Origin: Gemmata obscuriglobus
Lineage (GTDB): Bacteria; Planctomycetota; Planctomycetia; Gemmatales; Gemmataceae
DNA length: 32,000 bases
Reading direction: 5' to 3'
Assembly: GCF_008065095.1 (NCBI RefSeq)
Contig: NZ_CP042911.1
Span: 480,001-512,000, forward strand
In this document: positions 8,426 to 24,791 of the stretch, piece by piece
Position numbering within the stretch: the first letter of the stretch is position 1
Layout: every line of letters starts with the position of its first letter
Program-made: the position numbers and the translations under genes
Notes under the pieces: model-generated
Database searches by the model: none
What the model was told of the DNA's origin: nothing
What the model saw: only the letters and a program-made list of their open reading frames with translations

Positions 8426-8540
8426 TTAAACTCGAACCACTGTCGCGTTTGCCGAAGTACACCCACTGAGACCGGTATAGTGGACCCCGAAAACTGGACC
8501 GCCGGTTAAGCTATACCGGAGGCCCAGGAAAGGGGAACCC

Positions 8541-9669: not shown

Positions 9670-9747
9670 CGAAGGATAGCAACTTTTTGGTCTAGACAAT
9701 GGGGTCCACTGTACGGTTCACGGCTCACAGACAGGCACGGCAAGTTG

Positions 9748-9757
9748 CTTCCATCAA
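9748..9757. repeat. left copy of the 10-bp target-site duplication CTTCCATCAA of the ISAs1 element
   Basis: An identical decamer directly abuts both inverted repeats (9748-9757 and 11066-11075). Confidence 0.85.
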
Positions 9758-11065
9758 CAGGGCAAACGCACTCAATCCCCTAGGAATCGCTGGATTCTAG
9801 CTAATTTTGAGGCGTGTGATCGAGCGGCCATCGCTCGCCTCCTGCGCATGTGCGGCCCCGCCTCCATATGATTCTGGCGCGCCCTCACCGCCTCGGAGTC
9901 TGCCGATGAGTGCCGCCCCCGGCCCACGCCCGTTAATCGAGTACCTGTCCCAGATCCCGGATCCGCGGGTCGAGTTGAAGTGCTTCCACGACTTGATTGA
10001 TGTACTCATGATCGTGACCTGTGGGACGATCGTCGGGGCCGATGACTTCGTGTCGATCGCCGAGTTCGCGCGGGCCAAGGAGTCCTGGTTCCGGGACCGG
10101 CTGGGGCTGACGCTGCGCAACGGGATTCCGTCCCACGACACCCTCAACCGGGTGTTCGCGCTGGTCCGCCCGGAGGCGTTCGGGCGGTGCTTCCGGGCGT
10201 GGGTCGCGGACGCCGCCGAGGGCCTCCGGGTGCCCCACATCCCGATCGACGGGAAGACCATGCGGGGGTCCAAGCGGGTCACCGGCACGGGGGCTCGCAA
10301 GGCCACACACATCGTCAGCGCATGGGCTCAGCAGTTGGGCCTCACGTTGGCCCAGGTGAAGACCGACGAGAAGTCCAACGAGATCACCGCGATCCCGGAA
10401 CTGCTGGAGCGGCTGGACCTCGCGGGGGCCCTGGTGAGCATCGACGCGATGGGCACCCAGAAGGACATCGCCCAGCAGATCGTGGCCGCCAAGGGGGACT
10501 ACCTGCTGGCGGTCAAGGACAACCAGCCGCGGCTGCTCGAGGACATCCAGCGGTTGGCCGAGGGGGCCCTAGAGGCGAGCTACGCGGGCCGCTCGACCGA
10601 CCTCAACGAAGGAACGGGCCACGGGCGCGAGGAGATGCGGTTCTGCTTCGTGATCGACGACCTGGAGTCGATCCGGGACCGGAATGTGTGGCCCCGGTTG
10701 CGGTCCGTCGTGGTGCTCGTCAGCAGCCGCACGGTCGCCGGTAGGACGAGCGACGAGGTGCGGTATTACATCAGCTCGCGGAAGGCATCGGCCAAGCGGT
10801 TCCAAACGTGGATCCGGGCTCATTGGTGCATCGAGAATTCATGCCATTGGGTGCTGGATGTCGCGTTCCGAGAAGACGACCACCGACTCCGTGAAGGGCA
10901 CGGCCCGCAGAATATGGCCCTCGTGCGCAAGATCGCCTTGGCGATGTTGAAGAAGGCAAACGCCAAATGTGGGATCAAGAACCGGCGACTCAAGGCCGGA
11001 TGGGATAATACCTACCTCGAACAGGTACTACTGAAAAATCCCGAGGATTGAGTGCGTTTGCCCTG
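9758..11065 (+). mobile_element. ISAs1-family insertion sequence (1308 bp) with perfect 21-bp terminal inverted repeats
   Basis: CAGGGCAAACGCACTCAATCC at 9758-9778 is the exact reverse complement of 11045-11065. The element is flanked by a 10-bp direct repeat and carries a single transposase gene. Confidence 0.9.
9906..11051 (+). CDS. ISAs1 family transposase (H-repeat-associated type)
   Basis: Motifs IPDPRVE.K..H.L.D.L......I.GA..F..I..F, IDGKT.RGS, SIDAMGTQKDIA..I....GDYLLAVKDNQP, RYYISS and HW.IEN..HWVLDV.F.ED are present. The start was set at ATG 9906; the track ORF begins at 9807. Confidence 0.9.
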   Translation: MSAAPGPRPLIEYLSQIPDPRVELKCFHDLIDVLMIVTCGTIVGADDFVSIAEFARAKESWFRDRLGLTLRNGIPSHDTLNRVFALVRPEAFGRCFRAWVADAAEGLRVPHIPIDGKTMRGSKRVTGTGARKATHIVSAWAQQLGLTLAQVKTDEKSNEITAIPELLERLDLAGALVSIDAMGTQKDIAQQIVAAKGDYLLAVKDNQPRLLEDIQRLAEGALEASYAGRSTDLNEGTGHGREEMRFCFVIDDLESIRDRNVWPRLRSVVVLVSSRTVAGRTSDEVRYYISSRKASAKRFQTWIRAHWCIENSCHWVLDVAFREDDHRLREGHGPQNMALVRKIALAMLKKANAKCGIKNRRLKAGWDNTYLEQVLLKNPED

Positions 11066-11095: not shown

Positions 11096-11470
11096 ATGGC
11101 CGAGCGCATTCACCGCGACATGAAATGGACCGCCGAGGATCGCGCGCGGTACAAGGCCATTCGCGAGCAGTTTCAGAAAGAGCGTCCGACGCCCCAACAG
11201 CTCATCGAAAGTGGTGAGTACAACGGCCCCATTCCGCACGGGGTGTACCTGTCGCTCATGGCCGCACTGGTCGAACTCAAGAAGGCGCGGGAGGCGGCCG
11301 GGTTGAGCCTCGCAGATGTCGCCGAGCGGTCGGGTATCGACAAGGCCGCGCTCGGCCGGCTCGAAAACGGCGTCCACGATAACCCAACCGTTGATACGCT
11401 GGCCCGTTACGCTGCGGCAATTGGCAAGCGGCTGGTATGGTCGCTTCAAGATGTTGCACCAACAGTATGA
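11096..11470 (+). CDS. XRE-family helix-turn-helix protein (antitoxin-like)
   Basis: The C-terminal half, LKKAREAAGLSLADVAERSGIDKAALGRLENGVHDNPTVDTLARYAAAIG, is a canonical HTH_XRE. Confidence 0.8.
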   Translation: MAERIHRDMKWTAEDRARYKAIREQFQKERPTPQQLIESGEYNGPIPHGVYLSLMAALVELKKAREAAGLSLADVAERSGIDKAALGRLENGVHDNPTVDTLARYAAAIGKRLVWSLQDVAPTV

Positions 11471-11727
11471 GTCACCCGCGTCGTTGCGACCACGGCACGC
11501 CGCAAGCCGTCCCTGCTGATCGGCGGCGACTTTCTTGGAGGCGCCCTCAATACGAGGGTCTATTGTTTTCGACTCATTCGGCCCTGCGACGGGGGGACAG
11601 CACCACGCCGACTGGTCGCCGGCTGGACATTTGCTACCTCCCGACTGGCACTTCGCTGGGGCGTCGCTACCAACGAATCACACGATTCAGCGCCGGTGAT
11701 AGCCGCCAGAATCAACCCGGATTGGTC

Positions 11728-12174
11728 ATGACAAACGCGAATGACCCTTACGACCTGAACCGGTTCGTTGCGGCCCAGCAGGGCGGTGGCGGGCGGTCGG
11801 ATTACGCCACCGCGCTGGCCGAGGTCCGTGCCGGCGACAAGGTCACGCACTGGATGTGGTACGTCTTCCCACAGTTCGCCGGGCTGGGGTTCAGTGCGAT
11901 GTCCCAGCGGTACGCGATCAAGAGCCGTGCGGAGGCGGAAGCGTACCTCGCCCACCCCGTTCTCGGGCCGCGCCTCCTCGAATGCGCCGAGGCGGCGCTG
12001 GGTGTCGCGGGCAAATCGGCGCTCGACATCTTCGGCGGTCCCGACGACGCGAAGCTCAAATCGTGCGCGACGCTGTTCGCGCACATCTCGCCGGACGGCT
12101 CCGTGTTCCACCAACTCCTGGAGCGGTTCTTCGGCGGTGAGCGAGACGAGAAAACGCTCCGACTGCTCGGTTGA
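11728..12174 (+). CDS. DUF1810 family protein
   Basis: DPYDLNRFVAAQ....Y..AL.E...G.K..HWMWYVFPQ..GLG.S..S..YAI.S..EA.AYL.HP.LG.RL matches DUF1810. The start was set at ATG 11728 within track ORF 11437..12174. Confidence 0.85.
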   Translation: MTNANDPYDLNRFVAAQQGGGGRSDYATALAEVRAGDKVTHWMWYVFPQFAGLGFSAMSQRYAIKSRAEAEAYLAHPVLGPRLLECAEAALGVAGKSALDIFGGPDDAKLKSCATLFAHISPDGSVFHQLLERFFGGERDEKTLRLLG

Positions 12175-12291
12175 CCGTGCCATCGGCCGGGGGTATGGCC
12201 GCGTTCACGCAGCGGAGCGCAAACGCAGCACCCGAAACGGTCCGCTGAAAGTCGCCCACCGCCCACGTCCAGCGCCCTGCGAGGAACCACG

Positions 12292-12870
12292 GTGATGATT
12301 GGTGGATCGAGACCCATTCTGACGGCGTTGGTGGCGATTGCGGTCCTTCTATCGGGCTCGGGGTGCGACCGCGGGCCGCGCAACTTCGGCGTGGTGGAAC
12401 CCGGCGTGCTGTACCGCAGCGGACAACTCACCCCGTCGGCGTTCGAGCGGCTCCTGACCGACCACGGCATCAAAACGGTCGTGAGCCTGCGGCCGCTGCG
12501 CGACGAGGCCGAGAAGTCGGACGCGCACGAAGAAACCATCTGCCAGTCGCGCGGAATCAAGTTCGTGCGAATTCCGCCCCGCGAGACGGGCGCGGAACCG
12601 GGCGGCAGCCCGTTGGAACCGGTCGCGCGGGAGTTTTTGGCCGTGATGGCTGATCCGGCGAACCACCCGGTTTACGTCCACTGCACCGCGGGCCGCGATC
12701 GCACCGGGACGGTGTGCGCCGTTTACCGCGTGGATCACGACGGCTGGTCCCCGGAACAGGCGGTTGCGGAAATGCGGACCTTCGGGTTCGACCCGGACAA
12801 GGACGCGGCCGCCGGCGCCTACACCCGTTACATCCTCTCCTACCGCCGGCGGGCCGAACCGAGTCGCTGA
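12292..12870 (+). CDS. Cys-based protein tyrosine / dual-specificity phosphatase, probable lipoprotein
   Basis: The active-site P-loop HCTAGRDRTG (CX5R) is present. The N-terminal signal ends LLSGSGC, which looks like a lipobox. Confidence 0.85.
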   Translation: MMIGGSRPILTALVAIAVLLSGSGCDRGPRNFGVVEPGVLYRSGQLTPSAFERLLTDHGIKTVVSLRPLRDEAEKSDAHEETICQSRGIKFVRIPPRETGAEPGGSPLEPVAREFLAVMADPANHPVYVHCTAGRDRTGTVCAVYRVDHDGWSPEQAVAEMRTFGFDPDKDAAAGAYTRYILSYRRRAEPSR

Positions 12871-13033: not shown

Positions 13034-14701
13034 GTGAGAACGCGAAGCGGGCGCGGCGGCGTGCTGGACCCGATCGTGCGGGCCGCGCTTGCGGCCGTGC
13101 GGCTGGGCGAACTGTCCGACGGCGAACTGCTCGCCCGGTTCGTTGCGACCCGGGACGAGGAGGCGTTCGCCGAACTGGTGCGCCGGCTCGGGTCGACCGT
13201 ATACGGGGTGTGTCACCGCGTCCTCGGCACCCGCGCCGACGCCGAAGACGCCTTCCAGGTCACATTTCTGGTGCTGGCCCGCAAGGCCGACACGGTCCGA
13301 CCGCCCGGGCGGGTCGCGGCGTGGCTGCACGGGGTCGCCGTGCTGACCGCCCGCAAGGCCCGCGCCGGGCGGCTCCGGCGGTTCGCCCGCGAACGCGCGC
13401 TCGGCGACACGCCCGAGCCATCTGCCGTATACACGCCGCCGGAGCCGGACCTCGGTCGGGTGCTGGACGAGGAGATCCAGCGGCTCCCGGACAAGTACCG
13501 GGCGGCGGTGGTGCTGTGCGAGGTGCGCGGGCTGACCGTCGCCCAGACCGCGGCCGAACTCGGGCTGCCGGTCGGCACGGTGGCCAGCCGGTTGGCCCGC
13601 GGGCGCGCCCTGCTGGCTTCGCGGCTCACCCGCCGCGGGGTCGCCGGCGCCGCGGCCGTGGGCGCCGCGGGCGGGCTCGCGAGCACCGCGATGGCCGCAC
13701 CGGCCAAGCTCTTCGGGTCCGCAGTTTCGGTTGCGTTCTCCGGGTCACAATGCGCCCCGGCAGGCGCGCAACTGCTTCTCAACGAGGTACTACGAGCCAT
13801 GAGCCTGAGCAAACTTCGCGCGTTCGCGGTCGCGACGGTGCTGAGCGGCGCGGCCGCCCTTGGCGGCGCCGGCCTGCTCCCGTCGGGGGCCGCGCCGGCG
13901 CTTGCTGCGCCGGTTCCCAAAGCCGCCCCGGGCGCCGCCGACCCGCTCGACCGGGTCAAGGTCGACAACATCGCCGGGCTGCTCAAGGTCGAGGCGATCC
14001 GCAAGGACATCCAACTGACCGCCGAGCAGGCCAAGAAGGTGGACGAGCTGCGCGGCCGGCGCAAGCAGGCGGTTGTGCCGAACGTGATCCAGCAGGGGCC
14101 GGTCGGCGGTGTTGTGATTGGCCCGGCAATGCCCGCCCGCCCGGCAATTCCTGTCGGCCCGGCAATGCCCGTCGGCCCGGCAATTCCCGTCGGGGGTGGC
14201 ATCCAAGTCGTGGACGTGGCCGTCGGGTTCAGTGGTATGGAGTCGCCCAGCGACCCCGAGTTTTACAAGGCCGCCGCCGAGATTCTGAAGCCCGAACAGA
14301 TGCGCCGGCTGAAGCAGCTCTCGCTGCAAGCGAAGGGACCGGTCGTGCTGCTCGACCGCCGGGTGATTCGGGCGCTCGGGCTGTCCGCCGAGCAAGAAGA
14401 CAAGATCGAAGCCGTGGCGCCCCCGGACCGGAGCAAGAACGGCGGCACGCTGGCGGTTCGGATGGTGAACGGGCGCGTCGAGGATCCGGAGGCCGAGCGG
14501 GACGTGGCCGCGTGGGAGGCCGCCCTCAAGGTGCTCACCGCCGAGCAGCGTGCCAAGTGGGACGGCCTCGTCGGCAAAGTGCTCCCGGCGGCCGAGTTGC
14601 GAAAGGCCCAAATCGTGTCGCTGGAGGAAATCAAGAACCTGATGCCCAACCTGCCGAACGTACCGAACATCAACCCGATCCCGGTGCCCCCGCCGGGCTG
14701 A
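13034..14701 (+). CDS. ECF (sigma-70 family) RNA polymerase sigma factor fused to a TM segment and an extracytoplasmic LTXXQ-repeat domain
   Basis: Sigma2 (AFAELVRR....VYGVCHRVLG...DAEDAFQVTFLVLARKA) and sigma4 (RLPDKYRAAVVLCEVRGLTVAQTAAELGLPVGTVASRLARGRALL) regions are present. A hydrophobic helix follows (LRAFAVATVLSGAAALGGAGLL), then about 270 further residues. Confidence 0.85.
   Translation: MRTRSGRGGVLDPIVRAALAAVRLGELSDGELLARFVATRDEEAFAELVRRLGSTVYGVCHRVLGTRADAEDAFQVTFLVLARKADTVRPPGRVAAWLHGVAVLTARKARAGRLRRFARERALGDTPEPSAVYTPPEPDLGRVLDEEIQRLPDKYRAAVVLCEVRGLTVAQTAAELGLPVGTVASRLARGRALLASRLTRRGVAGAAAVGAAGGLASTAMAAPAKLFGSAVSVAFSGSQCAPAGAQLLLNEVLRAMSLSKLRAFAVATVLSGAAALGGAGLLPSGAAPALAAPVPKAAPGAADPLDRVKVDNIAGLLKVEAIRKDIQLTAEQAKKVDELRGRRKQAVVPNVIQQGPVGGVVIGPAMPARPAIPVGPAMPVGPAIPVGGGIQVVDVAVGFSGMESPSDPEFYKAAAEILKPEQMRRLKQLSLQAKGPVVLLDRRVIRALGLSAEQEDKIEAVAPPDRSKNGGTLAVRMVNGRVEDPEAERDVAAWEAALKVLTAEQRAKWDGLVGKVLPAAELRKAQIVSLEEIKNLMPNLPNVPNINPIPVPPPG
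14120..14191 (+). repeat. in-frame tandem repeat, 4 x 18 bp (GGCCCGGCAAT[G/T]CCCGTC), encoding GPA(M/I)PV hexapeptides
   Basis: Four consecutive 18-nt units at 14120-14137, 14138-14155, 14156-14173 and 14174-14191, all inside the ECF extension. Confidence 0.9.
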
Positions 14702-15107
14702 TCGCGGCCTCGGCCGAGCGCACCTGGTCGTGGCGGCCCCGCCCGGCCGAAAGCTCTCCAACAAGGTGCAGAAGGGCCGCGGGGTTGAACGGCTTCGACA
14801 GCACCGCGGCCGCGCCCGCCGCGTGCGCGGCCGCCGGGAACGCGCTGCCGCCCCGCGGCGGCTCACCGGTCATGGCGACCACCACCGCCTCCGGGTCCAG
14901 GGCGCGCAACTGCCGGATCGTTTCCAGCCCGTCCAGGACGGGCATGAACTGGTCGCACACGACGACCGCGGCGGCGCGCCGCGCGTACGCCTGGACCCCG
15001 GCCCGCCCGTTCGAAGCCTCGGACACCTCGTGCCCGGCCTCCTCGAACACCATGCGCAGCAGGAGTTGCACCTGCGGGTCGTCGTCGATCAGAAGAACGT
15101 GAGCCAC
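14670..15107 (-). CDS. stand-alone response regulator receiver (CheY-like)
   Basis: Motifs VLLIDDD, the phospho-acceptor context VVCDQFMPVLDG, AMTG and SKPF are present. The start is GTG 15107 (AAGGG 8 nt upstream) or GTG 15152. It lies downstream of and on the same strand as the hybrid kinase. Confidence 0.8.
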   Translation of the reverse strand: MAHVLLIDDDPQVQLLLRMVFEEAGHEVSEASNGRAGVQAYARRAAAVVVCDQFMPVLDGLETIRQLRALDPEAVVVAMTGEPPRGGSAFPAAAHAAGAAAVLSKPFNPAALLHLVGELSAGRGRHDQVRSAEAAISPAGAPGSG

Positions 15108-15211
15108 CGTCGCACCCTTCAACAATAAGCGTCCCGCGCGAGCGAGCCGCACGGTTTACAGCGAACACGCGCCACGCCCCAGGCACGGCGCGCACTGCTT
15201 GAGGGGGTATG

Positions 15212-18200
15212 TCAGCCGTCCAGCACCGCGCGCACCTTGCGGGCCAGCGCTTCGGCCGTGAACGGCTTCTGGAGGAACGCCACCTCGGCCGACCGCACCC
15301 CGTGCCGCACGACCGCGTCGTCGGTGTACCCCGACACGTACAGCACCCGGAGCCCGGGGCGCGACCACTGGAGCGCCTCGGCCAGTTGCCGCCCGCCCAT
15401 CCCCGGCATCACCACGTCGGTGATCAGCAGCGGGAGCGGCCCGCGGTGGGCCGCGGCCGTCTGGAGCGCTTCGCCCGCGCCGGGCGCTTCGAGCACCGTG
15501 TACCCGCGCTCGCGGAGCACCTCGCGGGCCAGCGCCCGGACCTCCGTGTCGTCTTCGACCAGCAGAACCGTTTCCGTGCCATCCGGAACGGCCGGCAGCG
15601 GCGTCGCGACCCCCGACGAACCCGGGCCGGCGCCGGCGGCGGGGAAGTACACCTGGAACGTGGTCCCGTGACCGATCACGGAGTCCACCTCGATGTGCCC
15701 GCCCGCCTGCTCGACCACGCCGTGAACCACCGCGAGCCCCAGCCCGGTGCCCCGGCCCGCCCCCTTGGTGGTGAAGAACGGCTCGAACAGCCGCGCCTTC
15801 ACCTCGTCGGACATCCCGCACCCGGTGTCGGTCACGGAGAGCAGGACGTACCGCGCCCCGTCGCGCTCGACGTTGCTGGTCTCGACGGTGAGCCGGCCGC
15901 CGGTGGGCATCGCGTCGCGCGCGTTCACCACCAGGTTCATCAGCACCTGTTCCGCCTGCCCGGGGTCGGCCACCACCTGCGCCAGCTCCGGGTCCGCCAC
16001 CGTCGTCAGCTCGATGTCCTCGCCGATCAGCCGGCGCAGCAGCCGCTCGGCCTCGGCCACCACCACGTTGAGCGACAGCGGGCGCGGCTGGATCACCTCC
16101 TGGCGGCTGAACGCGAGCAGTTGCCGGGTGAGCCCGGCCGCCCGCTCGCCGGCCTTGACGATCTCGCCGACCAGGGTCCGCTCCCGCCCGGTCAGGCGGT
16201 CGCCGAGCATCCCGCCGAACCCCAGGATCACGGTGAGCAGGTTGTTGAAGTCGTGCGCCACCCCGCCCGCCAGCCGCCCCACCGCTTCCATCTTCTGGGA
16301 CTGGAGGAGCTGGGCCTCCAACTGCTTGAGCGGGCTCACGTCGGTCTGGATCGCGACGAAGTGGGTCAGCGCGCCCGCCCCGTCGCGGACCGGGGCCACC
16401 GTCAGCGCGTTCCAGAACGGCTTGCCGTCCTTGCGGTAGTTGAGCAGCTCGACCAGCGCGGCCCGCCCGTCCCGCAGCGCCGCGCGGACGGCCGCCACCG
16501 CGCTCGGGTCGGTGCCCTTGCCCTGGAGGAACCGGCAGTTGCGGCCCAGCGCCTCGGCGGCGGGGTAGCCGGTCATCCGCTCGAACCCCGGGTTCACGTA
16601 CACCAGGGGGTGGTCCGGCCGGGTGGCGTCGGCGATCGCGACCCCCTGGGGGAACGCCGCCAGCGCCCGGTCGCGGAGCCGCATCTGCTCCTCCGCCCGC
16701 CGCCGCTCGACGAACTGGGCGATCAGGTCCGCGGCGCCGCCGAGGGCCTCGCGCGCCGGGGCGCCGAGCGCGGTCCGGGCGAACGTGGCCAGCACCCCGA
16801 CCAGCCGCCCCTCGACCAGCAGCGGGTACCCGGCGAACCCGACCAGCCCCGCACTCCGGACGCGCTCCGGCTCGCCCGTCAGGGGGTCGTCGGCGACCGC
16901 ATCGGTCCAGTACGGCTTCCGCTCCTCGGCGATGCGCCCGACCAGCAGCCGGCCGACCGGGATCCGGGCGTACAGGCCGTCGGTGGACGCGGTCAGCCCG
17001 GCGCTGGCCCGCAGCTCCAGCACCGTGCCCCCTTCGGGCAGAACCCACACGCGCACCAGCGCCGCGCCGAGCTCGTCGACCACGGCCGCGCAGCACGCCC
17101 GCAGCGCCTCCGGCTTGTCGCCCCCGCGGGCCACCGCCGCGGCCACCCCGGCCCGCATCGCCGCGGCCCGCTCGCGCTCGGCCCGGCGCGCCTCGGCCCG
17201 GTTCCGCTCGGTCACGTCCCGGTTCACGCTCAGCACGGCCGGGCGGCCGTCGAACTCCACCACCGACGCGTTCACCTCCAGCTCCATGCGCGCCCCGTCG
17301 CGGCGGAACTGGACCGTCTCGAACTGGTACACGTCGCGCCCGTCGGTCGCCGCGGCGACGTGCACGAGTCCCCCCGCGGGGTCCGCCGACAGGTCGGCGA
17401 GCGACCGGCCGACGAACTCCTCGCGGGGCAGGCCGTACGCCCGGCACGCCGCGGGGTTCACGTCGAGCACCCGCTCGCCGTCCGGGTCGAACACCAGCAC
17501 CGGGTCGTGCGCGTGCTCGAACAGGGTGCGGTAGTACCGCTCGGACCGGGCCACCGCCTCGGCCGCCCGGCGCGAATCGGTCACGTCCCGGACGATGCTG
17601 GTGAAGAACGTCTCCCCGCCGGCCTCCCACGCGGTCACCGTCAGCTCGGCCGGGAACTCGGTCCCGTCCCGCCGCTGCGCGTCCACCGCCACCACCTGTC
17701 CCACCACCGACGACGGCCGCCCGGGCCGGTACTCGGCCAGCCGCCCCGCGTGGGCCGCCCGGTACCGGGCGGGGATGATGCGGGTGATGTCCGAGCCCGT
17801 GGCGGCCTCGGCCGGGCACCCGAACACGCGCTCCGCGCCGCGGTTCCACCCGACCACGAGCCCGTGCCGGTCGGTGGTGATGATCGCGTCCGTCGCGGAC
17901 TCCACCACCGACCGCAGCCGCTCCTCGCTCGCCCGCAGCTCCAGCTCGGCCTGCTTCCGCGCGGTGATGTCGCGGGACGTGATGACGACCCCGTCCCCGA
18001 GCGGCACCACCTGGTGCTGGAGCCAGCACGACACGCCCTCCGGCGTCTGAAACGGGAACTCCTCTTCGAGCGGCTCCCGGGTGACCACCACGCGGGCGTA
18101 CCGGTCACAGAACCCGCCGGTGCGGTTGACGGGGAGCATCTCGCACAGCCGCTGCCCGACGGTCTCGGCGCGGGTCCGCGCCACGAGGTGTTCGCCGGCC

Positions 18201-18748
18201 GGGTTCACGTCGTCGAACGTGAAGTCCGTAATCAGCCCGTCGGGGTCGCGGACGGCGGTCAGGAAGAACATGGCGTCGAGGCTGCCGTTCATCGCCGCCC
18301 GGAACCGCTCCTCGCTGGCCCGCAGCTCGGCCTCGACCCGGCGCCGCTCGGCCACCTCGCGCTCCAGCTCCTCCGGGGAGCGCATCGCGAACGCCTTCGG
18401 GATCACCGGCAGCAGCGACAGCACGGTGGCCCACGACACCACGGCGGTGGCGAGCTTGACGAGCCCGGCCAGCCGGTACGCGGGCCACCAGAAGATGATC
18501 GCCTCGATCAGGTGCGTGGTGCCGCACAGGAGGATGAACGCGCTGAACAGCCAGAACAGGTTGCGGAACGGGACATCCTTGCGGCGCCGCGCGAACAGCA
18601 CCAGCGCGATCGGGATGGCCAGGTACGCGGACCACACGCCCAGGTCGGACAGGATGTGCAGCCAGCCCAGCGGCGCGTCCCAGTTCCCGCACCGCCACCG
18701 GGCCGGGAAGTCGGACGTGTCGAACAGGGAGAGCCAAAAGTGTTGCAT
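15212..18748 (-). CDS. hybrid sensor histidine kinase: ETR1-like membrane domain, 3 PAS, GAF, LOV, HisKA, HATPase_c, receiver
   Basis: The H-box is AHDFNNLL (His codon 16255-16253). N/G boxes are NLVVNARDAM, DTGCGM and GTGLGL. The receiver context is LLITDVVMPGMGG. The LOV motif is GRNCRFLQG. The N-terminal triple-helix domain carries LCGTTHL. The start was set at ATG 18748 (MQHFW); the track ORF starts at a TTG at 18787. Confidence 0.9.
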   Translation of the reverse strand: MQHFWLSLFDTSDFPARWRCGNWDAPLGWLHILSDLGVWSAYLAIPIALVLFARRRKDVPFRNLFWLFSAFILLCGTTHLIEAIIFWWPAYRLAGLVKLATAVVSWATVLSLLPVIPKAFAMRSPEELEREVAERRRVEAELRASEERFRAAMNGSLDAMFFLTAVRDPDGLITDFTFDDVNPAGEHLVARTRAETVGQRLCEMLPVNRTGGFCDRYARVVVTREPLEEEFPFQTPEGVSCWLQHQVVPLGDGVVITSRDITARKQAELELRASEERLRSVVESATDAIITTDRHGLVVGWNRGAERVFGCPAEAATGSDITRIIPARYRAAHAGRLAEYRPGRPSSVVGQVVAVDAQRRDGTEFPAELTVTAWEAGGETFFTSIVRDVTDSRRAAEAVARSERYYRTLFEHAHDPVLVFDPDGERVLDVNPAACRAYGLPREEFVGRSLADLSADPAGGLVHVAAATDGRDVYQFETVQFRRDGARMELEVNASVVEFDGRPAVLSVNRDVTERNRAEARRAERERAAAMRAGVAAAVARGGDKPEALRACCAAVVDELGAALVRVWVLPEGGTVLELRASAGLTASTDGLYARIPVGRLLVGRIAEERKPYWTDAVADDPLTGEPERVRSAGLVGFAGYPLLVEGRLVGVLATFARTALGAPAREALGGAADLIAQFVERRRAEEQMRLRDRALAAFPQGVAIADATRPDHPLVYVNPGFERMTGYPAAEALGRNCRFLQGKGTDPSAVAAVRAALRDGRAALVELLNYRKDGKPFWNALTVAPVRDGAGALTHFVAIQTDVSPLKQLEAQLLQSQKMEAVGRLAGGVAHDFNNLLTVILGFGGMLGDRLTGRERTLVGEIVKAGERAAGLTRQLLAFSRQEVIQPRPLSLNVVVAEAERLLRRLIGEDIELTTVADPELAQVVADPGQAEQVLMNLVVNARDAMPTGGRLTVETSNVERDGARYVLLSVTDTGCGMSDEVKARLFEPFFTTKGAGRGTGLGLAVVHGVVEQAGGHIEVDSVIGHGTTFQVYFPAAGAGPGSSGVATPLPAVPDGTETVLLVEDDTEVRALAREVLRERGYTVLEAPGAGEALQTAAAHRGPLPLLITDVVMPGMGGRQLAEALQWSRPGLRVLYVSGYTDDAVVRHGVRSAEVAFLQKPFTAEALARKVRAVLDG

Positions 18749-18916
18749 GGCGCGCGGTCTTGGGTCCAACACGTTGCCCGGCACCAACTCTATAACATGG
18801 CTGCGACAGGCAAAGCCGGTTGGCCGCTTTCCGTGCGCGGCGCCTCCGCTGTGGTTGAAATGTTGTTGCCAGGCGACAACGGGCCGGCGCGAGGGGCGCT
18901 ATTTTGAGGCGGGCCG

Positions 18917-20896
18917 TCAGCGGGCGCCGACGGCCCGGAAGTTCGCTCGCGCCTGATCGAACGCCGCGACCGCCCGGGCCAGGCCGGGCGCCAACTTCTC
19001 GACCGCCTGTCGGCAGGCCGGGGCGAGCGCCCCGAGTTCGCCGAGCCGGCGCTCCAGTTCGGCCAGGGCCTGCTGCTGGCGGGCGCGATATTTCACGACC
19101 AGCGCCTGTTGCTCGGCCGGAGACGTGGCGCCCCGCGGGTCGAACCGGAACGCCCGCAGCACCTCGTTCTTCCAGGCCATGACGTTGTTCGTCAGGGCGT
19201 CCCCGAACCCTTTGATCCCGCGCACCCGGTCCCACTCCACGTCGGCCGCCGTCACGACCCCGGCGGCGGCCAGGGTCTGTTTTCGCCCCGCCCCGATCTT
19301 CGGGATTTCGGCGTCCGCGAGCGGGTGGAGTTGGAGGTGCCGGCGGAGCGCCGCCGCTTCCGCGTGTGCGGCCAGTTGTCGCACCTCCCCTTGATACTGC
19401 GACGCCAGGGCGCGGCACTCGTCGACGAGGCGCCGGACGCGGCGGTCCCCGTCCGCGTGATCGCGCTGGTACGCGCGGACCCGCCGGCGCCACTTGTCTT
19501 CGAGGTCTGCGAGGTCGTCGCTCGCGTGCCGGTACGCCGCGCGGCGGCGGCGGTACTCCTGCCGCCACGGCGACCGCGCGACCAGCACCGCCAGCCACCC
19601 GCCGAACGCCAGCGCACCCAAAAGGGCGATGACGCACATGAACTCGCGGACCAGCCCCAGCGGCATCGCCAGCGCGCACAGTGCGGCCGCGCCGCCGACG
19701 ATCCGCGTCACGTTCCGGTGCTCGTCGAGCCCCTCCGGGAGCGGGTCCGGCGCGGGGGCGGCCGGCGGGGCGAACCGGGCGCGGTCGTAGCGGAACTCGG
19801 CCGGTTGGGTGCGGCCCAACCGCTCCAGCACGTCCCGCAACTTCTCCTCATCGACCTCGAAAGTGCCCGAAGTGCCGCCGGCGCCGAAGAAGTACTCCGG
19901 CCCGCCCCGGGCCGCCAGCCGGCACCACACGCACCCGCCAACGGCCCCGCGCCAGTACCGGTGCCCCGGGTCGGCCGCGCAGAGCACGGATTCCTGTTCG
20001 AGGGCCTGGAGCGCGGGCACCCACTCGGCGGCGCTGGGGCGCCCCCCGGCCTCGCTCCCGCGCTCGAACGCCCGGCAGAACAGGTTCCCGAGGTCGGGCG
20101 GGATGTCGGCGAAGGTCGGCGTGTGCGGCGGCGGCGCCATTCCCCAGGTGTGCGCCCGCGGCCCCTGGGCGAACTTGAACCCGGCGATCAGTTCCTCGAA
20201 CGACGGGTCGTCCGGCCCGGTGTACACCCCGGCGTAGGGGTGCCGGCCGACGAACAGGAGCTGATAAATCAGCACCGCCAGCCCGAACCGGTCGTGGTTC
20301 TCGGTCCGCACCAGCCCGCGCAGGTGCTGGCCCTGTAACTCCGGCGGGGTGTAGTGCGGGGTGCCCACGTCGCACAGGTACGACGCGCCGCCGGCGCGCA
20401 CCTGGAACGAGTCGCAATCGATCAGCCCGATGCGGGCGTCCGGCAGCACCAGCGCGTTGCTCTGGTTCACGTCGCACACCAGGCACCCGGCCTTGTGCAC
20501 CTCGTCGAACGCGGCCGCCAAGTTCCGCGCGGCGGCGACCTGAAAGGTCCAGCCGGCGCGCGGGAACGCCTTGAGCCGCATGACCGGGTTGTAGAGCTGC
20601 TGGACCGGGTGGCCGTTCGACACGCGCGGCATGACGAACCCGGCCGCGGCGCGGGTCCGCGCGTCGAACAGCACCGCGGTCGGCCACGCGGTCATTTGCT
20701 TGAGCGCCGGGCTGGCGAGCGCGACCATCGCGGCCAGCTTCTCGCCGCGCCGCGGGTCGCCCGGCTTGAGGTACACTTTCGCGACCTGGGCGGGGTCGTT
20801 GGGCAGGGCGAACACGGCCCCCTCGCCGCCCGACGCGAGGTGCGCGGCGAGCGGGAACGGGCGCCCCTGGGCGTCGATCAGTGCGGGTGGGGTCAT
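18917..20896 (-). CDS. yegI: membrane-anchored Ser/Thr protein kinase of the vWA-PP2C-kinase triad (YegI-like) with C-terminal helix-hairpin-helix motifs
   Basis: Kinase elements are GGEGAVF (G-loop), VAKVY (Lys), CDVNQSN (catalytic loop), IDCDSF (DFG equivalent) and GTPHYTPPE. A Cys cluster (C..H....CVWC) and two hydrophobic helices follow. HhH-like IPKIGAGRKQTLAAAGV and IKGFGDALTNNV lie near the C-terminus. The ATG overlaps the stop of the PP2C gene (ATGA). Confidence 0.85.
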   Translation of the reverse strand: MTPPALIDAQGRPFPLAAHLASGGEGAVFALPNDPAQVAKVYLKPGDPRRGEKLAAMVALASPALKQMTAWPTAVLFDARTRAAAGFVMPRVSNGHPVQQLYNPVMRLKAFPRAGWTFQVAAARNLAAAFDEVHKAGCLVCDVNQSNALVLPDARIGLIDCDSFQVRAGGASYLCDVGTPHYTPPELQGQHLRGLVRTENHDRFGLAVLIYQLLFVGRHPYAGVYTGPDDPSFEELIAGFKFAQGPRAHTWGMAPPPHTPTFADIPPDLGNLFCRAFERGSEAGGRPSAAEWVPALQALEQESVLCAADPGHRYWRGAVGGCVWCRLAARGGPEYFFGAGGTSGTFEVDEEKLRDVLERLGRTQPAEFRYDRARFAPPAAPAPDPLPEGLDEHRNVTRIVGGAAALCALAMPLGLVREFMCVIALLGALAFGGWLAVLVARSPWRQEYRRRRAAYRHASDDLADLEDKWRRRVRAYQRDHADGDRRVRRLVDECRALASQYQGEVRQLAAHAEAAALRRHLQLHPLADAEIPKIGAGRKQTLAAAGVVTAADVEWDRVRGIKGFGDALTNNVMAWKNEVLRAFRFDPRGATSPAEQQALVVKYRARQQQALAELERRLGELGALAPACRQAVEKLAPGLARAVAAFDQARANFRAVGAR

Positions 20897-21645
20897 GGGC
20901 GGCGGGCGGCTAGTACGAGCGTCTTGTCGTCGTCGGTGCGCTCGTTCACGCGGGCGGAGTTGAGGAACTGACGCAGCGGCTCGAACAGGGCTTCGGTGTC
21001 GGGCTCGGTCCGGAGCCGCCGGAACAGCGGTGTGAAGAACCCGGCGTGCGGGGCGCGGGCGGCGAAATCCAGTGCCAGGCGCTGGAGCCCGTCTGTCAGT
21101 GCGGCGAGTTCGGTCACCCGGTCGGCGACCACCTCGGTCCGGATCGCGCCGGCGAACCCGTCGTCGGTCAGGAAGTCGGTGGCGTTGGCGTACTCCGCCG
21201 GTTCGGGCCAGAACACGACGCGGTACCCGTCACCCGCCCCGCACACGATCGCCCCGTCGCCGAGTTGTGCGAACGCCGCGGTCTCCGGGCCGACCAGGGC
21301 CACGAGCGCCGTCGAGGCCAACTCGCGGGGCGGCACCTCCAGGGCGTCGGCCCGCGCCAGGACGGCCGAGCGGACGGCGGCGAACAGGTCGACGAGCGCC
21401 GCCGGCGCGCACAGGTCGGCGGGCACCGCCCGCGTCACGAGGCGCACGAACTCGTCGCACACCAGTTCGGCCCCGACATCGGACCGGGACGCGCTGCCCG
21501 CGCCGTCGGCCACGGCCACGAGCAGCCAGGCGCCGCCCGGACCGCAGTGGCAGACCCGGAACGCGTCCTGACAGGGAACGCTCCGGGCCGCGTGGGAGGT
21601 GCCGGGGGCGCTTTCGCCGAGGGTCCGCCAAATCGGGTCGGTCAC
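20893..21645 (-). CDS. yegK: PP2C-family Ser/Thr phosphatase of the triad (YegK/PphC-like)
   Basis: Motifs GTSH....PCQDA, VAVADGAGSAS, LGDGAIV, AEYANATDFLTD, LTDGLQRLAL, PHAGFFTPLF and VNERTDDDKTLVLA are present. The GTG start at 21645 overlaps the vWA stop (GTGA). The longer track ORF to 21936 runs out of frame through the vWA gene. Confidence 0.85.
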   Translation of the reverse strand: MTDPIWRTLGESAPGTSHAARSVPCQDAFRVCHCGPGGAWLLVAVADGAGSASRSDVGAELVCDEFVRLVTRAVPADLCAPAALVDLFAAVRSAVLARADALEVPPRELASTALVALVGPETAAFAQLGDGAIVCGAGDGYRVVFWPEPAEYANATDFLTDDGFAGAIRTEVVADRVTELAALTDGLQRLALDFAARAPHAGFFTPLFRRLRTEPDTEALFEPLRQFLNSARVNERTDDDKTLVLAARRP

Positions 21646-22391
21646 AGGCTGGCCCACCCGGCCGGCGGCGCCAGTTTGACCTGCTCCTCCTGGCCCGGGT
21701 TGGAGTGGGACACGCTCCGCTGCGACTGCGACAGCCAGAGGAACATCTCCTTGAAGCTGTACCCCTTGAGGTGCAACGGCTGGCGAACGGAGATCTGCTT
21801 CAGCCGGTCCATGTTCGCCCCCTCCACGCCCACGGCGAAGAACGCGAACTGCTTCTTTTCCTCCCCCTCGCGCACGCGGGCCGCCGCGGCCTCCCACGCG
21901 TCGGTGGGTTCGCCGTCGGTGATCAAGAAGATCCACGGGCGGTAGAAGTGGAGCCCGTTCTGCCGGTACTCGCGCTTGCGCTCGGTGACCGCGTCGATCG
22001 CCTTCAGGATCGCCGCGCCCATCGGCGTTTCGCCGTTCGCGGTCAGAACGGGCGGGGTGAACTGCGATGTCGTCACGAACGGGGTGACGGTCCGGACCGT
22101 GTCGCCGAACGTGACGACGGACACCTCGACGCGCTGGGCCGCGAGCGGGTCGTTCGTCACGTCCGCCTGGTACACGCGCAGGCCCTCGTTGACCAAATCG
22201 ATCCGGGTCGTGCCGCCGGAAACGACCCGGTACGTCTTCCCGTCAACCTGGGCGGTGCGTCCCAGGTCGCGGCCGGTGCCGCTCACCACTTCCGCCATCG
22301 ACCCGGAGGTGTCGATGAGCAGCACGCACGGGCACCGCGGTTCCGGGTTGGTCGCCAGGGCGACATCACTGAACGGGATTTGTTCGGCCAC
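21642..22391 (-). CDS. yegL: TerY/YegL-type von Willebrand factor A domain protein
   Basis: AEQIPFSDVALATNPEPRCPCVLLIDTSGSM (MIDAS DxSxS), TPMGAA, YRPWIFLITDGEPTD and FAFFAVGVEGANM are present. The start was set at GTG 22391, which matches the family N-terminus; the track ORF starts at GTG 22445. Confidence 0.85.
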   Translation of the reverse strand: MAEQIPFSDVALATNPEPRCPCVLLIDTSGSMAEVVSGTGRDLGRTAQVDGKTYRVVSGGTTRIDLVNEGLRVYQADVTNDPLAAQRVEVSVVTFGDTVRTVTPFVTTSQFTPPVLTANGETPMGAAILKAIDAVTERKREYRQNGLHFYRPWIFLITDGEPTDAWEAAAARVREGEEKKQFAFFAVGVEGANMDRLKQISVRQPLHLKGYSFKEMFLWLSQSQRSVSHSNPGQEEQVKLAPPAGWASL

Positions 22392-22872
22392 GAGCGACCC
22401 CCGAACGGCTTTGAGCGGCGTTCTGCCTCGGACGAGTATATTCACACCTCGCCGCGGCGGGCAGTCGCGGGCGGTCGGCGGCCCGTCACCGTTCTGCCGG
22501 CCGTCAGGGCCGGACCGACTTCACGGCGGCGTTGCCGAACCAGACGACTCGGTAGTTTTGGTCCAGGGGGTCGAGGCCGCACGCACGCTGCTGGGGGCAG
22601 CTAAGAATTCGCGCCGACGCACTCACACGCACGCCCATCACCCGCCTCGTATCGCCTCGACGCAACGGCGCGAATTAAGCCGCCGCGCGGGCGCCGTTCC
22701 AAGTGAAATGACGCCCGGTCGGATGCCAGATCCGGCCGGGCCGACGCCGCACGCTTGATCAAACTCAAAGGGGGTTGGCACCGAGATGCAGTTAATCAAC
22801 TGTGACGGCTCGGCCGACCGGCGAGGCGTGGACGTGGTCACTCCGAAGGCCCGGATCAGGGCAGCCGCCCGG

Positions 22873-23370: not shown

Positions 23371-23390
23371 ACACGTTAGAATCGGACCTT

Positions 23391-24775: not shown

Positions 24776-24791
24776 GGCTGTCAGGAACCCA

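What the first reader, a model, noticed from the sequence alone, without database searches (positions are those of the whole stretch)
14670..18748. One kinase combining putative ethylene, heme/gas and blue-light inputs with a GAF domain, feeding a dedicated receiver
The architecture is ethylene-binding domain, PAS, FixL-like PAS, PAS, GAF, LOV, HisKA, HATPase and REC, followed by a separate CheY-like gene. The only functionally characterised bacterial ethylene receptor I know of (SynEtr1) also couples the ethylene-binding domain to a photosensor, in that case a cyanobacteriochrome. An ethylene-binding domain with a LOV domain would be an independent reinvention of ethylene-plus-light integration in a non-photosynthetic lineage. 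The stand-alone receiver has no output domain, which suggests a phosphorelay or a motility/biofilm-type output.
Basis: inference. Interest (0 to 1): 0.75.

Follow-up and report, generated by a model that had tools for sequence, protein, structure and literature searches.

The report
Ethylene-plus-blue-light sensor kinase in Gemmata
A single membrane kinase of the non-photosynthetic bacterium Gemmata obscuriglobus carries both an intact plant-type ethylene-binding domain and a canonical blue-light (LOV) domain, and relatives share the pairing, so it is a testable candidate for combined gas and light sensing.

Summary
Window 15212-18748 (-) encodes a 1178-aa hybrid histidine kinase, with a 145-aa stand-alone receiver 104 nt downstream (14670-15107).

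It is exactly Gemmata obscuriglobus WP_010042468.1, annotated only as "Blue-light-activated protein / PAS domain S-box protein".

- **Ethylene-binding domain:** Pfam ETR1_N matches at 126 bits. Every residue needed for copper and ethylene binding in Arabidopsis ETR1 is present.
- **LOV domain:** canonical (GRNCRFLQG, Cys738), 149 bits to a solved LOV structure. It sits a fixed 29 residues before the phospho-accepting His832.
- **"FixL-like" PAS:** its best matches are FixL haem domains and it keeps the proximal His. It lacks the three residues I recall as FixL's distal and propionate contacts, so haem or gas sensing is only a possibility.
- **Family:** this is not a one-off. About 14 clusters in Planctomycetota share an intact ethylene-binding domain, a variable PAS/GAF middle, then LOV-kinase-receiver.
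- **Receiver pairing:** conserved only within G. obscuriglobus and G. algarum.

The closest characterised systems are AzoEtr1 with its single-domain regulator, and SynEtr1, which combines an ethylene-binding domain with a bilin photosensor. I found no paper describing an ethylene-binding domain fused to LOV. I rate it a new variant of a known kind. All function is inferred.

The parts
15212..18748 (-). Multi-sensor hybrid histidine kinase gene, 1178 aa, with its stop codon at 15212-14. It equals G. obscuriglobus WP_010042468.1.
   Evidence: ORF; exact look-up in the protein collection; 95% identical ortholog P0121 in G. algarum.
18374..18748 (-). Ethylene-binding domain (aa 1-125): three transmembrane helices carrying Asp35, Tyr42, Ile45, Pro46, Ile72, Cys75, His79 and Lys98. 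A conserved Cys20 lies before helix 1.
   Evidence: Pfam ETR1_N 126 bits over aa 27-121. 36% identity to the AtETR1 N-terminus, with D25/Y32/I35/P36/I62/C65/H69/K91 all aligned to identical residues. These columns are 96-100% conserved in 113 homologs. Three hydrophobic peaks at about aa 43, 75 and 105.
17939..18343 (-). PAS 1 (aa 136-270, PAS_4 type), ligand unknown. It is reached from transmembrane helix 3 through a charged linker that I take to be helical.
   Evidence: Pfam PAS_4; no sequence relative among solved structures.
17549..17932 (-). FixL-like PAS 2 (aa 273-400) with the putative proximal haem ligand His333. The FixL distal Arg and the propionate-binding residues are not conserved.
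   Evidence: Best PDB matches are BjFixL and RmFixL haem domains, 78 bits, E 6e-21, in a gapless alignment. By my count of the printed alignment the His column holds His in about 61 of the 66 related database PAS domains, but the query has Glu, Ser and Val at the positions I recall as Bj Arg206, His214 and Arg220.
17189..17548 (-). PAS 3 (aa 401-520), ligand unknown.
   Evidence: Pfam PAS_8/PAS_9/PAS.
16694..17128 (-). GAF domain (aa 541-685), ligand unknown. It is not of the bilin-binding type.
   Evidence: Pfam GAF_2 E 8.5e-11. No match to any solved GAF, cyanobacteriochrome or phytochrome sequence at E<=0.01.
16319..16663 (-). LOV domain (aa 696-810) with the adduct-forming Cys738 in GRNCRFLQG. 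In the printed PDB alignments it also keeps the Asn, Asn and Gln positions (LLNYRKDG, FWN, IQTD) that I recognise as flavin contacts.
   Evidence: PDB 9vf7 LOV 149.7 bits and phototropin LOV1 127 bits. NCBIfam YtvA family 152 bits and blue-light histidine kinase 141 bits, both below the equivalog cut-offs.
15629..16303 (-). Coiled-coil linker, DHp and catalytic domains (aa 816-1040): H-box AHDFNN (His832), N-box, G1, F-box and G2 are all present.
   Evidence: Pfam HisKA and HATPase_c; motif positions. The spacing from the LOV 'DVS' motif to His is 29 residues and is the same in 15 of 17 related LOV kinases.
15215..15574 (-). Fused receiver (aa 1059-1178): Asp1066/Asp1067, phospho-acceptor Asp1111, Ser1139 and Lys1161.
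   Evidence: Pfam Response_reg E 5e-17; motifs.
15108..15211 (-). 104-nt spacer between the kinase and the receiver gene. No terminator-like site was detected in it.
   Evidence: Coordinates; scan. The spacer is 49 nt in G. algarum.
14670..15107 (-). Stand-alone single-domain response regulator (145 aa, WP_050790294.1): Asp8-10, acceptor Asp52, and the Thr (AMTG) and Lys (SKPF) motifs. It has no output domain and a non-conserved Ala/Gly/Pro-rich tail.
   Evidence: Pfam Response_reg only. No NCBIfam equivalog is reached; the best is CpdR-like at 57 bits against a cut-off of 180. 83% identical to the G. algarum neighbour; identity.

Best explanation
This is a membrane-anchored, probably dimeric, multi-input hybrid histidine kinase of Gemmata obscuriglobus. 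It places two independent small-signal sensors on one kinase.

**Shown by sequence**
- The N-terminal three-helix domain has the complete Cu(I)/ethylene-binding residue set of plant ETR1: Asp35, Cys75 and His79, plus Tyr42, Ile45, Pro46, Ile72 and the coupling residue Lys98.
- A canonical LOV domain (Cys738) lies directly before the DHp helix, at a fixed 29-residue spacing from His832.
- The kinase core and both receivers keep all catalytic residues.

**Inferred**
- Ethylene binding at the membrane changes the packing of transmembrane helix 3.
- That change travels down a chain of charged, probably helical linkers through PAS1, the His333 PAS (possibly haem-bound), PAS3 and GAF.
- It is combined at the LOV-to-DHp coiled coil with the blue-light-driven FMN-Cys738 adduct. 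Together these set the autophosphorylation level of His832.
- Phosphate then goes to the fused receiver (Asp1111) and/or the adjacent single-domain regulator (Asp52). That regulator acts by protein-protein contact or as a phosphate sink. A motility or surface-attachment output is plausible by analogy with AzoEtr1 and SynEtr1.
- The ecological logic is that ethylene in water comes from phototrophs and from sunlight acting on dissolved organic matter. A heterotroph living near algae would therefore gain from reading ethylene and light together.
For: - **Architecture and scores:**
- **Ethylene-binding residues:** (alignment to AtETR1; 96-100% column conservation in 113 homologs), PMC10266040 (roles of Asp25, Cys65, His69 and Lys91) and PMC6586836 (I35, P36 and I62 essential).
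- **Ethylene binding by bacterial domains with this residue set has been shown:** for AzoEtr1, where D35A and C75A variants (the same residue numbers) were constructed for testing (PMC11819568), and for SynEtr1 (PMC6682694).
- **LOV motif:** intact.
- **Recurrence:** about 14 90%-identity clusters in Gemmatales and Pirellulales have an intact ethylene-binding domain, a variable middle of 171-687 aa, then LOV-kinase-receiver.
- **LOV-to-His spacing:** 29 residues in 15 of 17. That is BjFixL's 36 minus one heptad. The FixL numbering is from my own knowledge; its DLTEHQQT segment is seen.
- **Receiver:** co-directional, with no terminator detected between the genes, and conserved in G. algarum.
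- **Ecology:** G. algarum came from algal mats (PMC10817699), and ethylene forms photochemically in water (PMC6682694).
Against: - No biochemical or genetic data exist for this protein.
- Ethylene binding has been tested in only a few ethylene-binding domains, none from Planctomycetota.
- The GAF, PAS1 and PAS3 ligands are unknown.
- The haem PAS lacks the residues I recall as FixL Arg206, His214 and Arg220.
- The stand-alone receiver is not conserved next to most homologs.
- No Hpt gene is in the window, so the route of phosphotransfer is open.
- Some relatives have lost the Cu-ligand Cys (L017 ORF, P0391) or the LOV Cys (P0128). The pairing is therefore not under universal constraint.
- The set of homologs I sampled is biased towards proteins resembling the query.
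Confidence: 0.6

Rival explanations
1. The protein is essentially a blue-light LOV histidine kinase. The ETR1_N domain serves only as a membrane anchor and dimerisation module, or it senses something other than ethylene, such as copper status, redox state or another small unsaturated or gaseous ligand.
For: - Public annotation already calls it "Blue-light-activated protein".
- The LOV-kinase-receiver half resembles stand-alone LOV hybrid kinases: NCBIfam PRK13557 at 483 bits over aa 717-1191, and P0146 has no ethylene-binding domain.
- Relatives with a Cys-to-Ser change at the copper site (L017 ORF, P0391) or with both ligands lost (P0388) still keep the fold.
- No ethylene-binding domain has a solved structure in the PDB copy searched.
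Against: - All eight residues tied to copper and ethylene binding and to signal coupling in ETR1 are identical here. They are 96-100% conserved in 113 homologs, which argues for selection on the ligand site rather than on a mere anchor.
- Two bacterial domains with the same residue set bind ethylene (PMC11819568, PMC6682694).
Confidence: 0.25
2. The adjacent single-domain receiver is not the output. It is a phosphate sink or an unrelated neighbour, and the real output runs from the fused receiver through an unlinked Hpt protein to a distant regulator, as in a classical phosphorelay.
For: - The kinase is a hybrid with an intact fused receiver.
- Most homologs of this type lack a co-directional stand-alone receiver.
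- The spacer is 104 nt, not a translationally coupled overlap as in AzoEtr1 (PMC11819568).
- From my own knowledge, the single-domain LovR of Caulobacter acts as a phosphate sink for LovK.
Against: - No Hpt gene is in the 32-kb window.
- The receiver is conserved, at 83% identity, directly downstream in G. algarum while the genes beyond it differ.
- Single-domain receivers also lie next to P0128 and P0129.
- AzoEtr1 has the same pairing (PMC11819568).
Confidence: 0.4
3. The LOV and His333 PAS domains act mainly as redox or oxygen sensors in the dark (flavin and haem redox state). The protein would then report cellular or environmental redox rather than light.
For: - From my own knowledge, flavin reduction modulates the Caulobacter LovK kinase.
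- The His333 PAS is related to oxygen-sensing FixL.
- The host is a heterotroph with no known light behaviour. No paper was found that mentions Gemmata obscuriglobus together with ethylene, blue light or a LOV domain.
Against: - The adduct-forming Cys is kept in 13 of 14 clusters with an intact ethylene-binding domain.
- From my own knowledge, other non-phototrophs use LOV kinases as true light sensors.
- The FixL residues that I recall binding oxygen are absent.
Confidence: 0.12

Closest known systems
AzoEtr1 / AzoRR-etr1 of Azospirillum brasilense (PMC11819568)
   Same: An N-terminal three-helix ethylene-binding domain with the same key residues, even the same numbering (D35, C75), followed by PAS and a histidine kinase. 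A downstream gene encodes a receiver of about 135-145 aa with no output domain.
   Different: AzoEtr1 is 525 aa with one PAS, no LOV, no GAF and no fused receiver. Its regulator gene overlaps the kinase stop codon, whereas here the gap is 104 nt. It comes from a different phylum and is a plant-root associate.
SynEtr1 (UirS/PixA, slr1212) of Synechocystis PCC 6803 (PMC6682694)
   Same: [quoted passage not shown]
   Different: Its photosensor is a bilin-binding GAF (cyanobacteriochrome), not a flavin LOV. It has no fused receiver and its host is a phototroph. The GAF here shows no similarity to solved cyanobacteriochromes.
Plant ETR1 (Arabidopsis)
   Same: The ethylene-binding domain is 36% identical with all binding residues conserved. 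The overall order is ethylene-binding domain, GAF, histidine kinase, receiver.
   Different: Four PAS-fold domains, including LOV, are inserted here. From my own knowledge, ETR1 forms a disulfide-linked dimer through Cys4 and Cys6, whereas here there is a single conserved Cys20. Also from my own knowledge, plant signalling goes through CTR1/EIN2 rather than phosphotransfer.
Bacterial LOV histidine kinases (NCBIfam PRK13557 type; Brucella LOV-HK; Caulobacter LovK/LovR; the engineered YF1)
   Same: A LOV core joined by a coiled coil to the DHp His. The PRK13557 model matches aa 717-1191 at 483 bits. The LOV-to-His spacing is in the same heptad register as FixL/YF1, at 29 against 36 residues (the FixL/YF1 figure and the named examples are from my own knowledge). 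A single-domain receiver is the neighbour, as with LovR.
   Different: As far as I know, those proteins are soluble and have LOV as their main or only sensor. The score is below the PRK13557 cut-off of 631. Here LOV is the last of six sensor modules behind a membrane gas-binding domain.
FixL haem PAS (Bradyrhizobium, Sinorhizobium)
   Same: It is the best structural-database match for PAS2 (E 6e-21), in a gapless alignment with the proximal His conserved.
   Different: The residues I recall as Arg206, His214 and Arg220 are Glu, Ser and Val here. Haem binding is unproven.

Membership tests
ETR1-type ethylene-binding domain (Pfam PF25487 ETR1_N) | Full-length match to the family profile above the curated cut-off | tested here: met
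   126.3 bits against a cut-off of 27; profile positions 2-96 of 97.
ETR1-type ethylene-binding domain (Pfam PF25487 ETR1_N) | Three N-terminal transmembrane helices | tested here: met
   Three hydropathy peaks centred at about aa 43, 75 and 105, and none elsewhere except a marginal one at aa 560.
ETR1-type ethylene-binding domain (Pfam PF25487 ETR1_N) | Cu(I) ligands Cys65 and His69 on helix 2, plus Asp25 on helix 1 | tested here: met
   Cys75, His79 and Asp35 align to them. Their roles are described in PMC10266040.
ETR1-type ethylene-binding domain (Pfam PF25487 ETR1_N) | Other residues essential for ethylene binding (Tyr32, Ile35, Pro36, Ile62) and the coupling residue Lys91 | tested here: met
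   Tyr42, Ile45, Pro46, Ile72 and Lys98 are identical. I35, P36 and I62 are stated to be essential in PMC6586836. Tyr32 is from my own knowledge of Wang et al. 2006.
ETR1-type ethylene-binding domain (Pfam PF25487 ETR1_N) | Saturable, copper-dependent ethylene binding | not testable with these tools
   Needs a 14C-ethylene binding assay.
LOV photosensor | PAS fold with a GXNCRFLQG motif containing the adduct-forming Cys | tested here: met
   GRNCRFLQG with Cys738; 149.7 bits to the LOV structure 9vf7.
LOV photosensor | Flavin-contacting Arg, Gln, Asn, Asn and Gln positions | tested here: met
   These positions are identical in the printed alignments to 9vf7 and phototropin LOV1 (NCRFLQ, LLNYRKDG, FWN, IQTD). 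Which residues contact flavin is from my own knowledge.
LOV photosensor | Blue-light photocycle (450 nm to 390 nm adduct) | not testable with these tools
   Needs spectroscopy of the purified domain.
FixL-type haem/oxygen-sensing PAS | Sequence similarity to the FixL haem domain and a proximal His on the F-helix | tested here: met
   78 bits, E 6e-21. His333 aligns with the proximal His.
FixL-type haem/oxygen-sensing PAS | Distal Arg220 and propionate contacts Arg206 and His214 (BjFixL numbering, from my own knowledge) | tested here: not met
   These positions are Val, Glu and Ser in the gapless alignment. I therefore do not file it as a FixL-type oxygen sensor.
FixL-type haem/oxygen-sensing PAS | Haem binding | not testable with these tools
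   Needs Soret and pyridine-haemochrome measurements, with an H333A control.
SynEtr1-type receptor (ethylene-binding domain plus cyanobacteriochrome) | A bilin-binding GAF (cyanobacteriochrome) photosensor | tested here: not met
   The GAF matches only the generic GAF_2 and GAF models and no solved GAF, cyanobacteriochrome or phytochrome sequence. The protein may work like SynEtr1 but is not a member of that type.
Hybrid histidine kinase (HisKA class) | H-box His; N, G1, F and G2 boxes; receiver DD, D, S/T and K residues | tested here: met
   His832; motifs at aa 938, 974, 988 and 1000; Asp1066/1067, Asp1111, Ser1139 and Lys1161.
NCBIfam PRK13557 LOV-type hybrid kinase / CckA equivalogs | Score above the curated cut-off | tested here: not met
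   PRK13557 scores 483 against 631. The CckA models score 385 and 332 against 1000.
Single-domain (CheY-like) response regulator | A receiver domain with catalytic Asp, Thr and Lys residues and no output domain | tested here: met
   Only Response_reg is found over aa 4-115 of 145 (aa 19-130 of the 160-aa ORF that was scanned). Asp8-10, Asp52, and the AMTG and SKPF motifs are present. No chemotaxis CheY equivalog cut-off is reached.

The most novel reading that the evidence does not exclude
Pairing an ethylene-binding domain with a photosensor is a convergent, selected design: bilin-based in cyanobacteria and flavin-based in Planctomycetota. The reason would be that environmental ethylene is largely a product of light, from phototroph metabolism and from photochemistry of dissolved organics. 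The Gemmata family would then be a coincidence detector for ethylene and blue light, and perhaps also redox state through His333. It would control surface attachment or swarmer behaviour near algae, and would be a natural gas-plus-light two-input kinase.
Probability: 0.3. Interest if true: 0.75.

Novelty: new variant of a known kind. Interest (0 to 1): 0.55.

Why it matters
Ethylene perception outside plants has been demonstrated in very few microbes, and the ecological meaning of bacterial ethylene receptors remains unanswered (PMC6682694).

A conserved planctomycete family joins an intact ethylene-binding site to a canonical LOV domain. It offers a second, evolutionarily independent case of ethylene-plus-light integration, in a non-phototroph that can be cultured. 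From my own knowledge, genetic tools for G. obscuriglobus have been published.

This makes the idea that ethylene serves as a proxy for light or for nearby phototrophs directly testable. It also shows that generic labels such as "PAS domain S-box protein" or "Blue-light-activated protein" can hide a gas-sensing module. Finally, it provides a natural scaffold in which a gas and light act on one kinase output.

Tried and rejected
1. **Database search with the ethylene-binding domain alone.** It returned only 117-254-aa proteins, which looked like stand-alone domains. One example on a 719-kb contig (P0030) proved to be a kinase gene split into four ORFs, most simply by frameshift errors in the assembly. 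I did not treat these as a separate class.
2. **The L017 ORF.** I first took it as an independent fusion of an ethylene-binding domain with LOV. Its copper-ligand Cys is Ser, as in P0391, and P0388 has lost both ligands. These count only as degenerate relatives.
3. **My first LOV pattern (N[CA]RF[LM]Q).** It missed NCRLLQ and NCRILQ variants (P0123, P0124, P0398) and the Cys-to-Ser variant P0128. I corrected the count by profile matching.
4. **PDB sequence searches.** The ethylene-binding domain, GAF and PAS1 found nothing.
5. **Promoter and terminator scan of 14300-19200.** Uninformative: no promoters, and one weak terminator-like site outside the spacer.
6. **Neighbour-joining tree of 113 ethylene-binding domains.** The domain is too short to resolve how many times LOV was gained, so I draw no conclusion from it.
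7. **Look-ups that failed.** The P0136 look-up failed. Lacey & Binder 2016, Wang et al. 2006 and Glantz et al. 2016 are not held. Carlew et al. 2019/2020 (Small Methods) has no PMC id in the reference list and I did not look it up. The claim that this fusion is unreported therefore rests only on full-text searches of the held library.
8. **Structure prediction.** Not run. No ethylene-binding-domain structure exists to compare against, and the tool returns no coordinates for measuring site geometry.
9. **Upstream VWA / PP2C / kinase-like genes.** I considered that they might belong to the system. The same trio was not seen in the gene tables of the other kinases of this type, so I treat them as neighbours only.

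Full report
**1. Observation**

The finding's coordinates are exact. On the minus strand, an ORF runs from an ATG at 18748 to a stop at 15212-15214 and encodes 1178 aa. An in-frame TTG at 18787 is an alternative start. A second ORF follows 104 nt downstream. It runs from a GTG at 15107 to a stop at 14670-14672 and encodes 145 aa. Its start aligns with the ATG of the ortholog.

The region is about 72-77% G+C, and third-codon-position G+C is 0.96 in the kinase frame. Both figures fit a real high-GC gene.

**2. Identity**

An exact-sequence look-up shows the kinase is Gemmata obscuriglobus WP_010042468.1 (also AWM40965.1 and QEG25718.1). Its public names are "Blue-light-activated protein", "PAS domain S-box protein" and "histidine kinase". 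The small gene is WP_050790294.1, named "Chemotaxis protein CheY" or "response regulator".

Orthologs with 95% identity exist in Gemmata algarum JC673 and JC717. Strain JC673 was isolated from algal mats (PMC10817699).

**3. Domain-by-domain check**

Pfam finds ETR1_N, four PAS regions, GAF_2, HisKA, HATPase_c and Response_reg. The small protein has Response_reg only.

*Ethylene-binding domain (aa 1-125).*
- ETR1_N scores 126 bits against a cut-off of 27 and covers the full profile.
- The domain aligns with the Arabidopsis ETR1 N-terminus at 36% identity. Its numbering agrees with the known alleles C65Y, A102T, A31V and I62F.
- Asp25, Tyr32, Ile35, Pro36, Ile62, Cys65, His69 and Lys91 of ETR1 all align to identical residues: Asp35, Tyr42, Ile45, Pro46, Ile72, Cys75, His79 and Lys98.
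- Published work assigns Cys65, His69 and Asp25 to Cu(I) and ethylene binding, and Lys91 to signal coupling (PMC10266040). Ile35, Pro36 and Ile62 are listed as essential (PMC6586836).
- In 113 homologous domains these columns are 96-100% conserved. A Cys at position 20, before helix 1, is conserved in 112 of 113.
- Hydropathy gives three membrane segments.
- No solved structure of this domain type was found.

*LOV domain (aa 696-810).*
- It scores 149.7 bits (E 3.8e-43) to the LOV structure 9vf7 and 127 bits to phototropin LOV1.
- It has GRNCRFLQG (Cys738). It is identical to those structures at the Asn, Asn and Gln positions that I recognise as flavin contacts.

*PAS2 (aa 273-400).*
- Its best solved relatives are all FixL haem domains (E 6e-21, gapless alignment). 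His333 lies on the proximal His.
- By my count of the printed alignment, that column holds His in about 61 of the 66 related PAS domains retrieved from the databases (the two FixL references in the same alignment also have it).
- The query has Glu, Ser and Val where, from memory of BjFixL, Arg206, His214 and Arg220 lie.
- I therefore regard haem binding as possible, at about 40-50%, and a FixL-like oxygen mechanism as unlikely.

*Other sensor domains.* PAS1, PAS3 and the GAF have no informative relatives. The GAF shows no similarity to bilin-binding GAFs.

*Kinase core and receivers.* The kinase core (His832; N, G1, F and G2 boxes), the fused receiver (Asp1066/1067, Asp1111, Ser1139, Lys1161) and the stand-alone receiver (Asp8-10, Asp52, Thr, Lys) are all catalytically complete.

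**4. Comparative evidence**

The ethylene-binding domain family is large. A search with the domain against the 50%-identity representative library gave 8056 matches at E<=0.001 and 913 at E<=1e-30.

About 14 clusters at 90% identity combine an intact copper motif (CGxxH) with a strong LOV match:
- the query cluster;
- P0123 and P0124;
- P0127 (Urbifossiella);
- P0128 and P0129;
- P0130;
- P0132 to P0135;
- P0136 (Gemmata palustris);
- P0383;
- P0398 (a Pirellulales metagenome-assembled genome).

Thirteen of them keep the LOV Cys, as NCRFLQ, NCRLLQ or NCRILQ. P0128 has NSRFLQ.

The ethylene-binding domain is always N-terminal. In all but P0128, which has an extra PAS before the kinase, LOV sits immediately before the kinase and receiver. 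The segment between them varies in steps of roughly one domain: 171-174, 279-290, 433, 553-571 and 666-687 residues. The family therefore has constant ends and a variable PAS/GAF cassette. Among the intact members only P0128 and P0136 have a longer middle than G. obscuriglobus. G. obscuriglobus and G. algarum are the only ones with the His-PAS and GAF together.

The distance from the LOV C-terminal D(V/I)(T/S) motif to the phospho-accepting His is exactly 29 residues in 15 of 17 related LOV kinases, with or without an ethylene-binding domain. From my knowledge of BjFixL (Asp255 to His291), that is FixL's 36 minus one heptad. This fits a continuous coiled coil like the one exploited in the engineered YF1.

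Degenerate relatives also exist. The L017 ORF and P0391 have Ser in place of the copper-ligand Cys, and P0388 has lost both ligands.

The sample is biased towards proteins similar to the query, so these counts are not frequencies.

**5. Genomic context**

In G. algarum the order is VWA, PP2C, kinase-like protein, this kinase, receiver. The genes after the receiver differ from those in the window. The kinase-receiver pair is thus kept while the downstream side changes, but these are close relatives.

Next to more distant kinases of this type, the neighbours are:

| Homolog | Neighbouring signalling genes |
|---|---|
| P0123 | a convergent PAS kinase, no receiver |
| P0127 | an upstream PAS kinase |
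| P0129 | a divergent STAS plus single receiver |
| P0128 | a convergent single receiver |
| P0132 | a divergent NarL-type regulator plus CheA/CheW |

No Hpt gene lies in the window. No terminator-like site lies between kinase and receiver. The receiver is a plausible partner, but not a proven one.

**6. Mechanism**

*Shown.* Two complete and independent sensor sites are present, a Cu/ethylene site in the membrane and an FMN-Cys LOV site. They lie on one polypeptide with one kinase core. The modules are joined by the usual D(I/V)T-type charged linkers, which I take to be helical.

*Inferred.*
- Ligand-induced rearrangement of transmembrane helix 3, coupled through Asp35 and Lys98, is passed down the linker spine.
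- It is combined at the LOV-DHp coiled coil with the light-induced adduct, and together they set His832 autophosphorylation.
- Phosphate then goes to Asp1111 and/or to Asp52 of the stand-alone receiver.
- Because the linker is in the FixL/YF1 register, I weakly predict that light lowers kinase activity.
- From my knowledge of Lacey & Binder 2016, which is not held in the library, ethylene inhibits signalling by the plant receptors and by SynEtr1. If the same holds here, both cues would push the kinase in the same direction.
- The output is unknown. By analogy with AzoEtr1 (biofilm formation and root colonisation) and SynEtr1 (phototaxis and biofilm formation), a surface-attachment or motility output is the best guess.

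**7. Comparison with known systems**

The protein may work like SynEtr1, which senses both ethylene and light, but it is not of that type because it has no cyanobacteriochrome. In gene organisation it is closest to AzoEtr1 and its 135-aa regulator with no output domain (PMC11819568). Its C-terminal half resembles LOV hybrid kinases of the PRK13557 type but scores below the cut-off.

**8. Novelty**

Full-text searches found no paper that describes an ethylene-binding domain fused to LOV, or ethylene sensing in Planctomycetota or Gemmata. Key reviews and surveys (Carlew et al. 2019/2020, Lacey & Binder 2016, Glantz et al. 2016) could not be read, so prior mention cannot be excluded.

The protein and its Pfam domains are already in public databases. 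What is new is recognising the combination and its recurrence. I rate it a new variant of a known kind, with interest 0.55.

**9. Limits**

No function was tested. The ETR1 sequence and the FixL numbering are from memory. The ETR1 numbering is consistent with known alleles, and the FixL segment visible in the alignment matches what I recalled. The homolog sample is biased and small relative to the family.

Noticed in passing
window 18917-22445 (-): Three genes lie directly upstream on the same strand: a VWA protein, a PP2C phosphatase (PP2C_2, E 2e-46) and a 659-aa protein with a weak protein-kinase match. The last two overlap by 4 nt. The trio is conserved in the same order in G. algarum. PADLOC gives only weak PD-T4-6 kinase matches. 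It looks like a separate VWA / PP2C / kinase module of unknown role.
   Followed up: partly
window 22786-25400: This stretch has about 54-55% G+C against a background of about 70%. Its ORFs (22786-23265, 23455-24543, 24792-25340) have no Pfam match. It may be a horizontally acquired island.
   Followed up: partly
window 8481-11051 (+): Two insertion-sequence transposases lie side by side. One is an IS3-type pair, with HTH_Tnp_1 at 8481-8828 overlapping an rve integrase at 8803-9669, which suggests a programmed frameshift. The other is a DDE_Tnp_1 transposase at 9801-11051.
   Followed up: no
window 13034-14701 (+): An ECF-type sigma factor (regions 2 and 4) carries an extension of about 350 aa that is rich in Ala and Pro. 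The gene converges on the stand-alone receiver gene and overlaps its 3' end by 32 nt. In G. algarum the gene at this position is different.
   Followed up: partly
window 18689-18691 (Cys20 of the kinase): A single Cys in the segment before transmembrane helix 1 (RWRCGNW) is conserved in 112 of 113 bacterial ethylene-binding domains sampled. It may correspond to the disulfide-forming Cys4 and Cys6 of plant ETR1.
   Followed up: partly
L017 8889-11411; proteins P0391, P0388, P0128: Some relatives of this family have lost a key residue. L017 and P0391 have Ser for the copper-ligand Cys. P0388 has lost both the Cys and the His. P0128 has Ser for the LOV Cys and an extra PAS between LOV and the kinase.
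   Followed up: partly
L025 4001-6476: Many database proteins that appear to be ETR1_N alone (130-250 aa), even on contigs of several hundred kb, seem to be fragments. In L025 the kinase is split into four consecutive ORFs (ethylene-binding domain, PAS, PAS plus kinase, receiver), most simply explained by frameshift errors in the assembly.
   Followed up: yes
window 11437-12870 (+): A DUF1810 protein and a dual-specificity or tyrosine phosphatase-like protein (PTP-NADK and Y_phosphatase2 matches) lie between the insertion sequences and the sigma factor.
   Followed up: no
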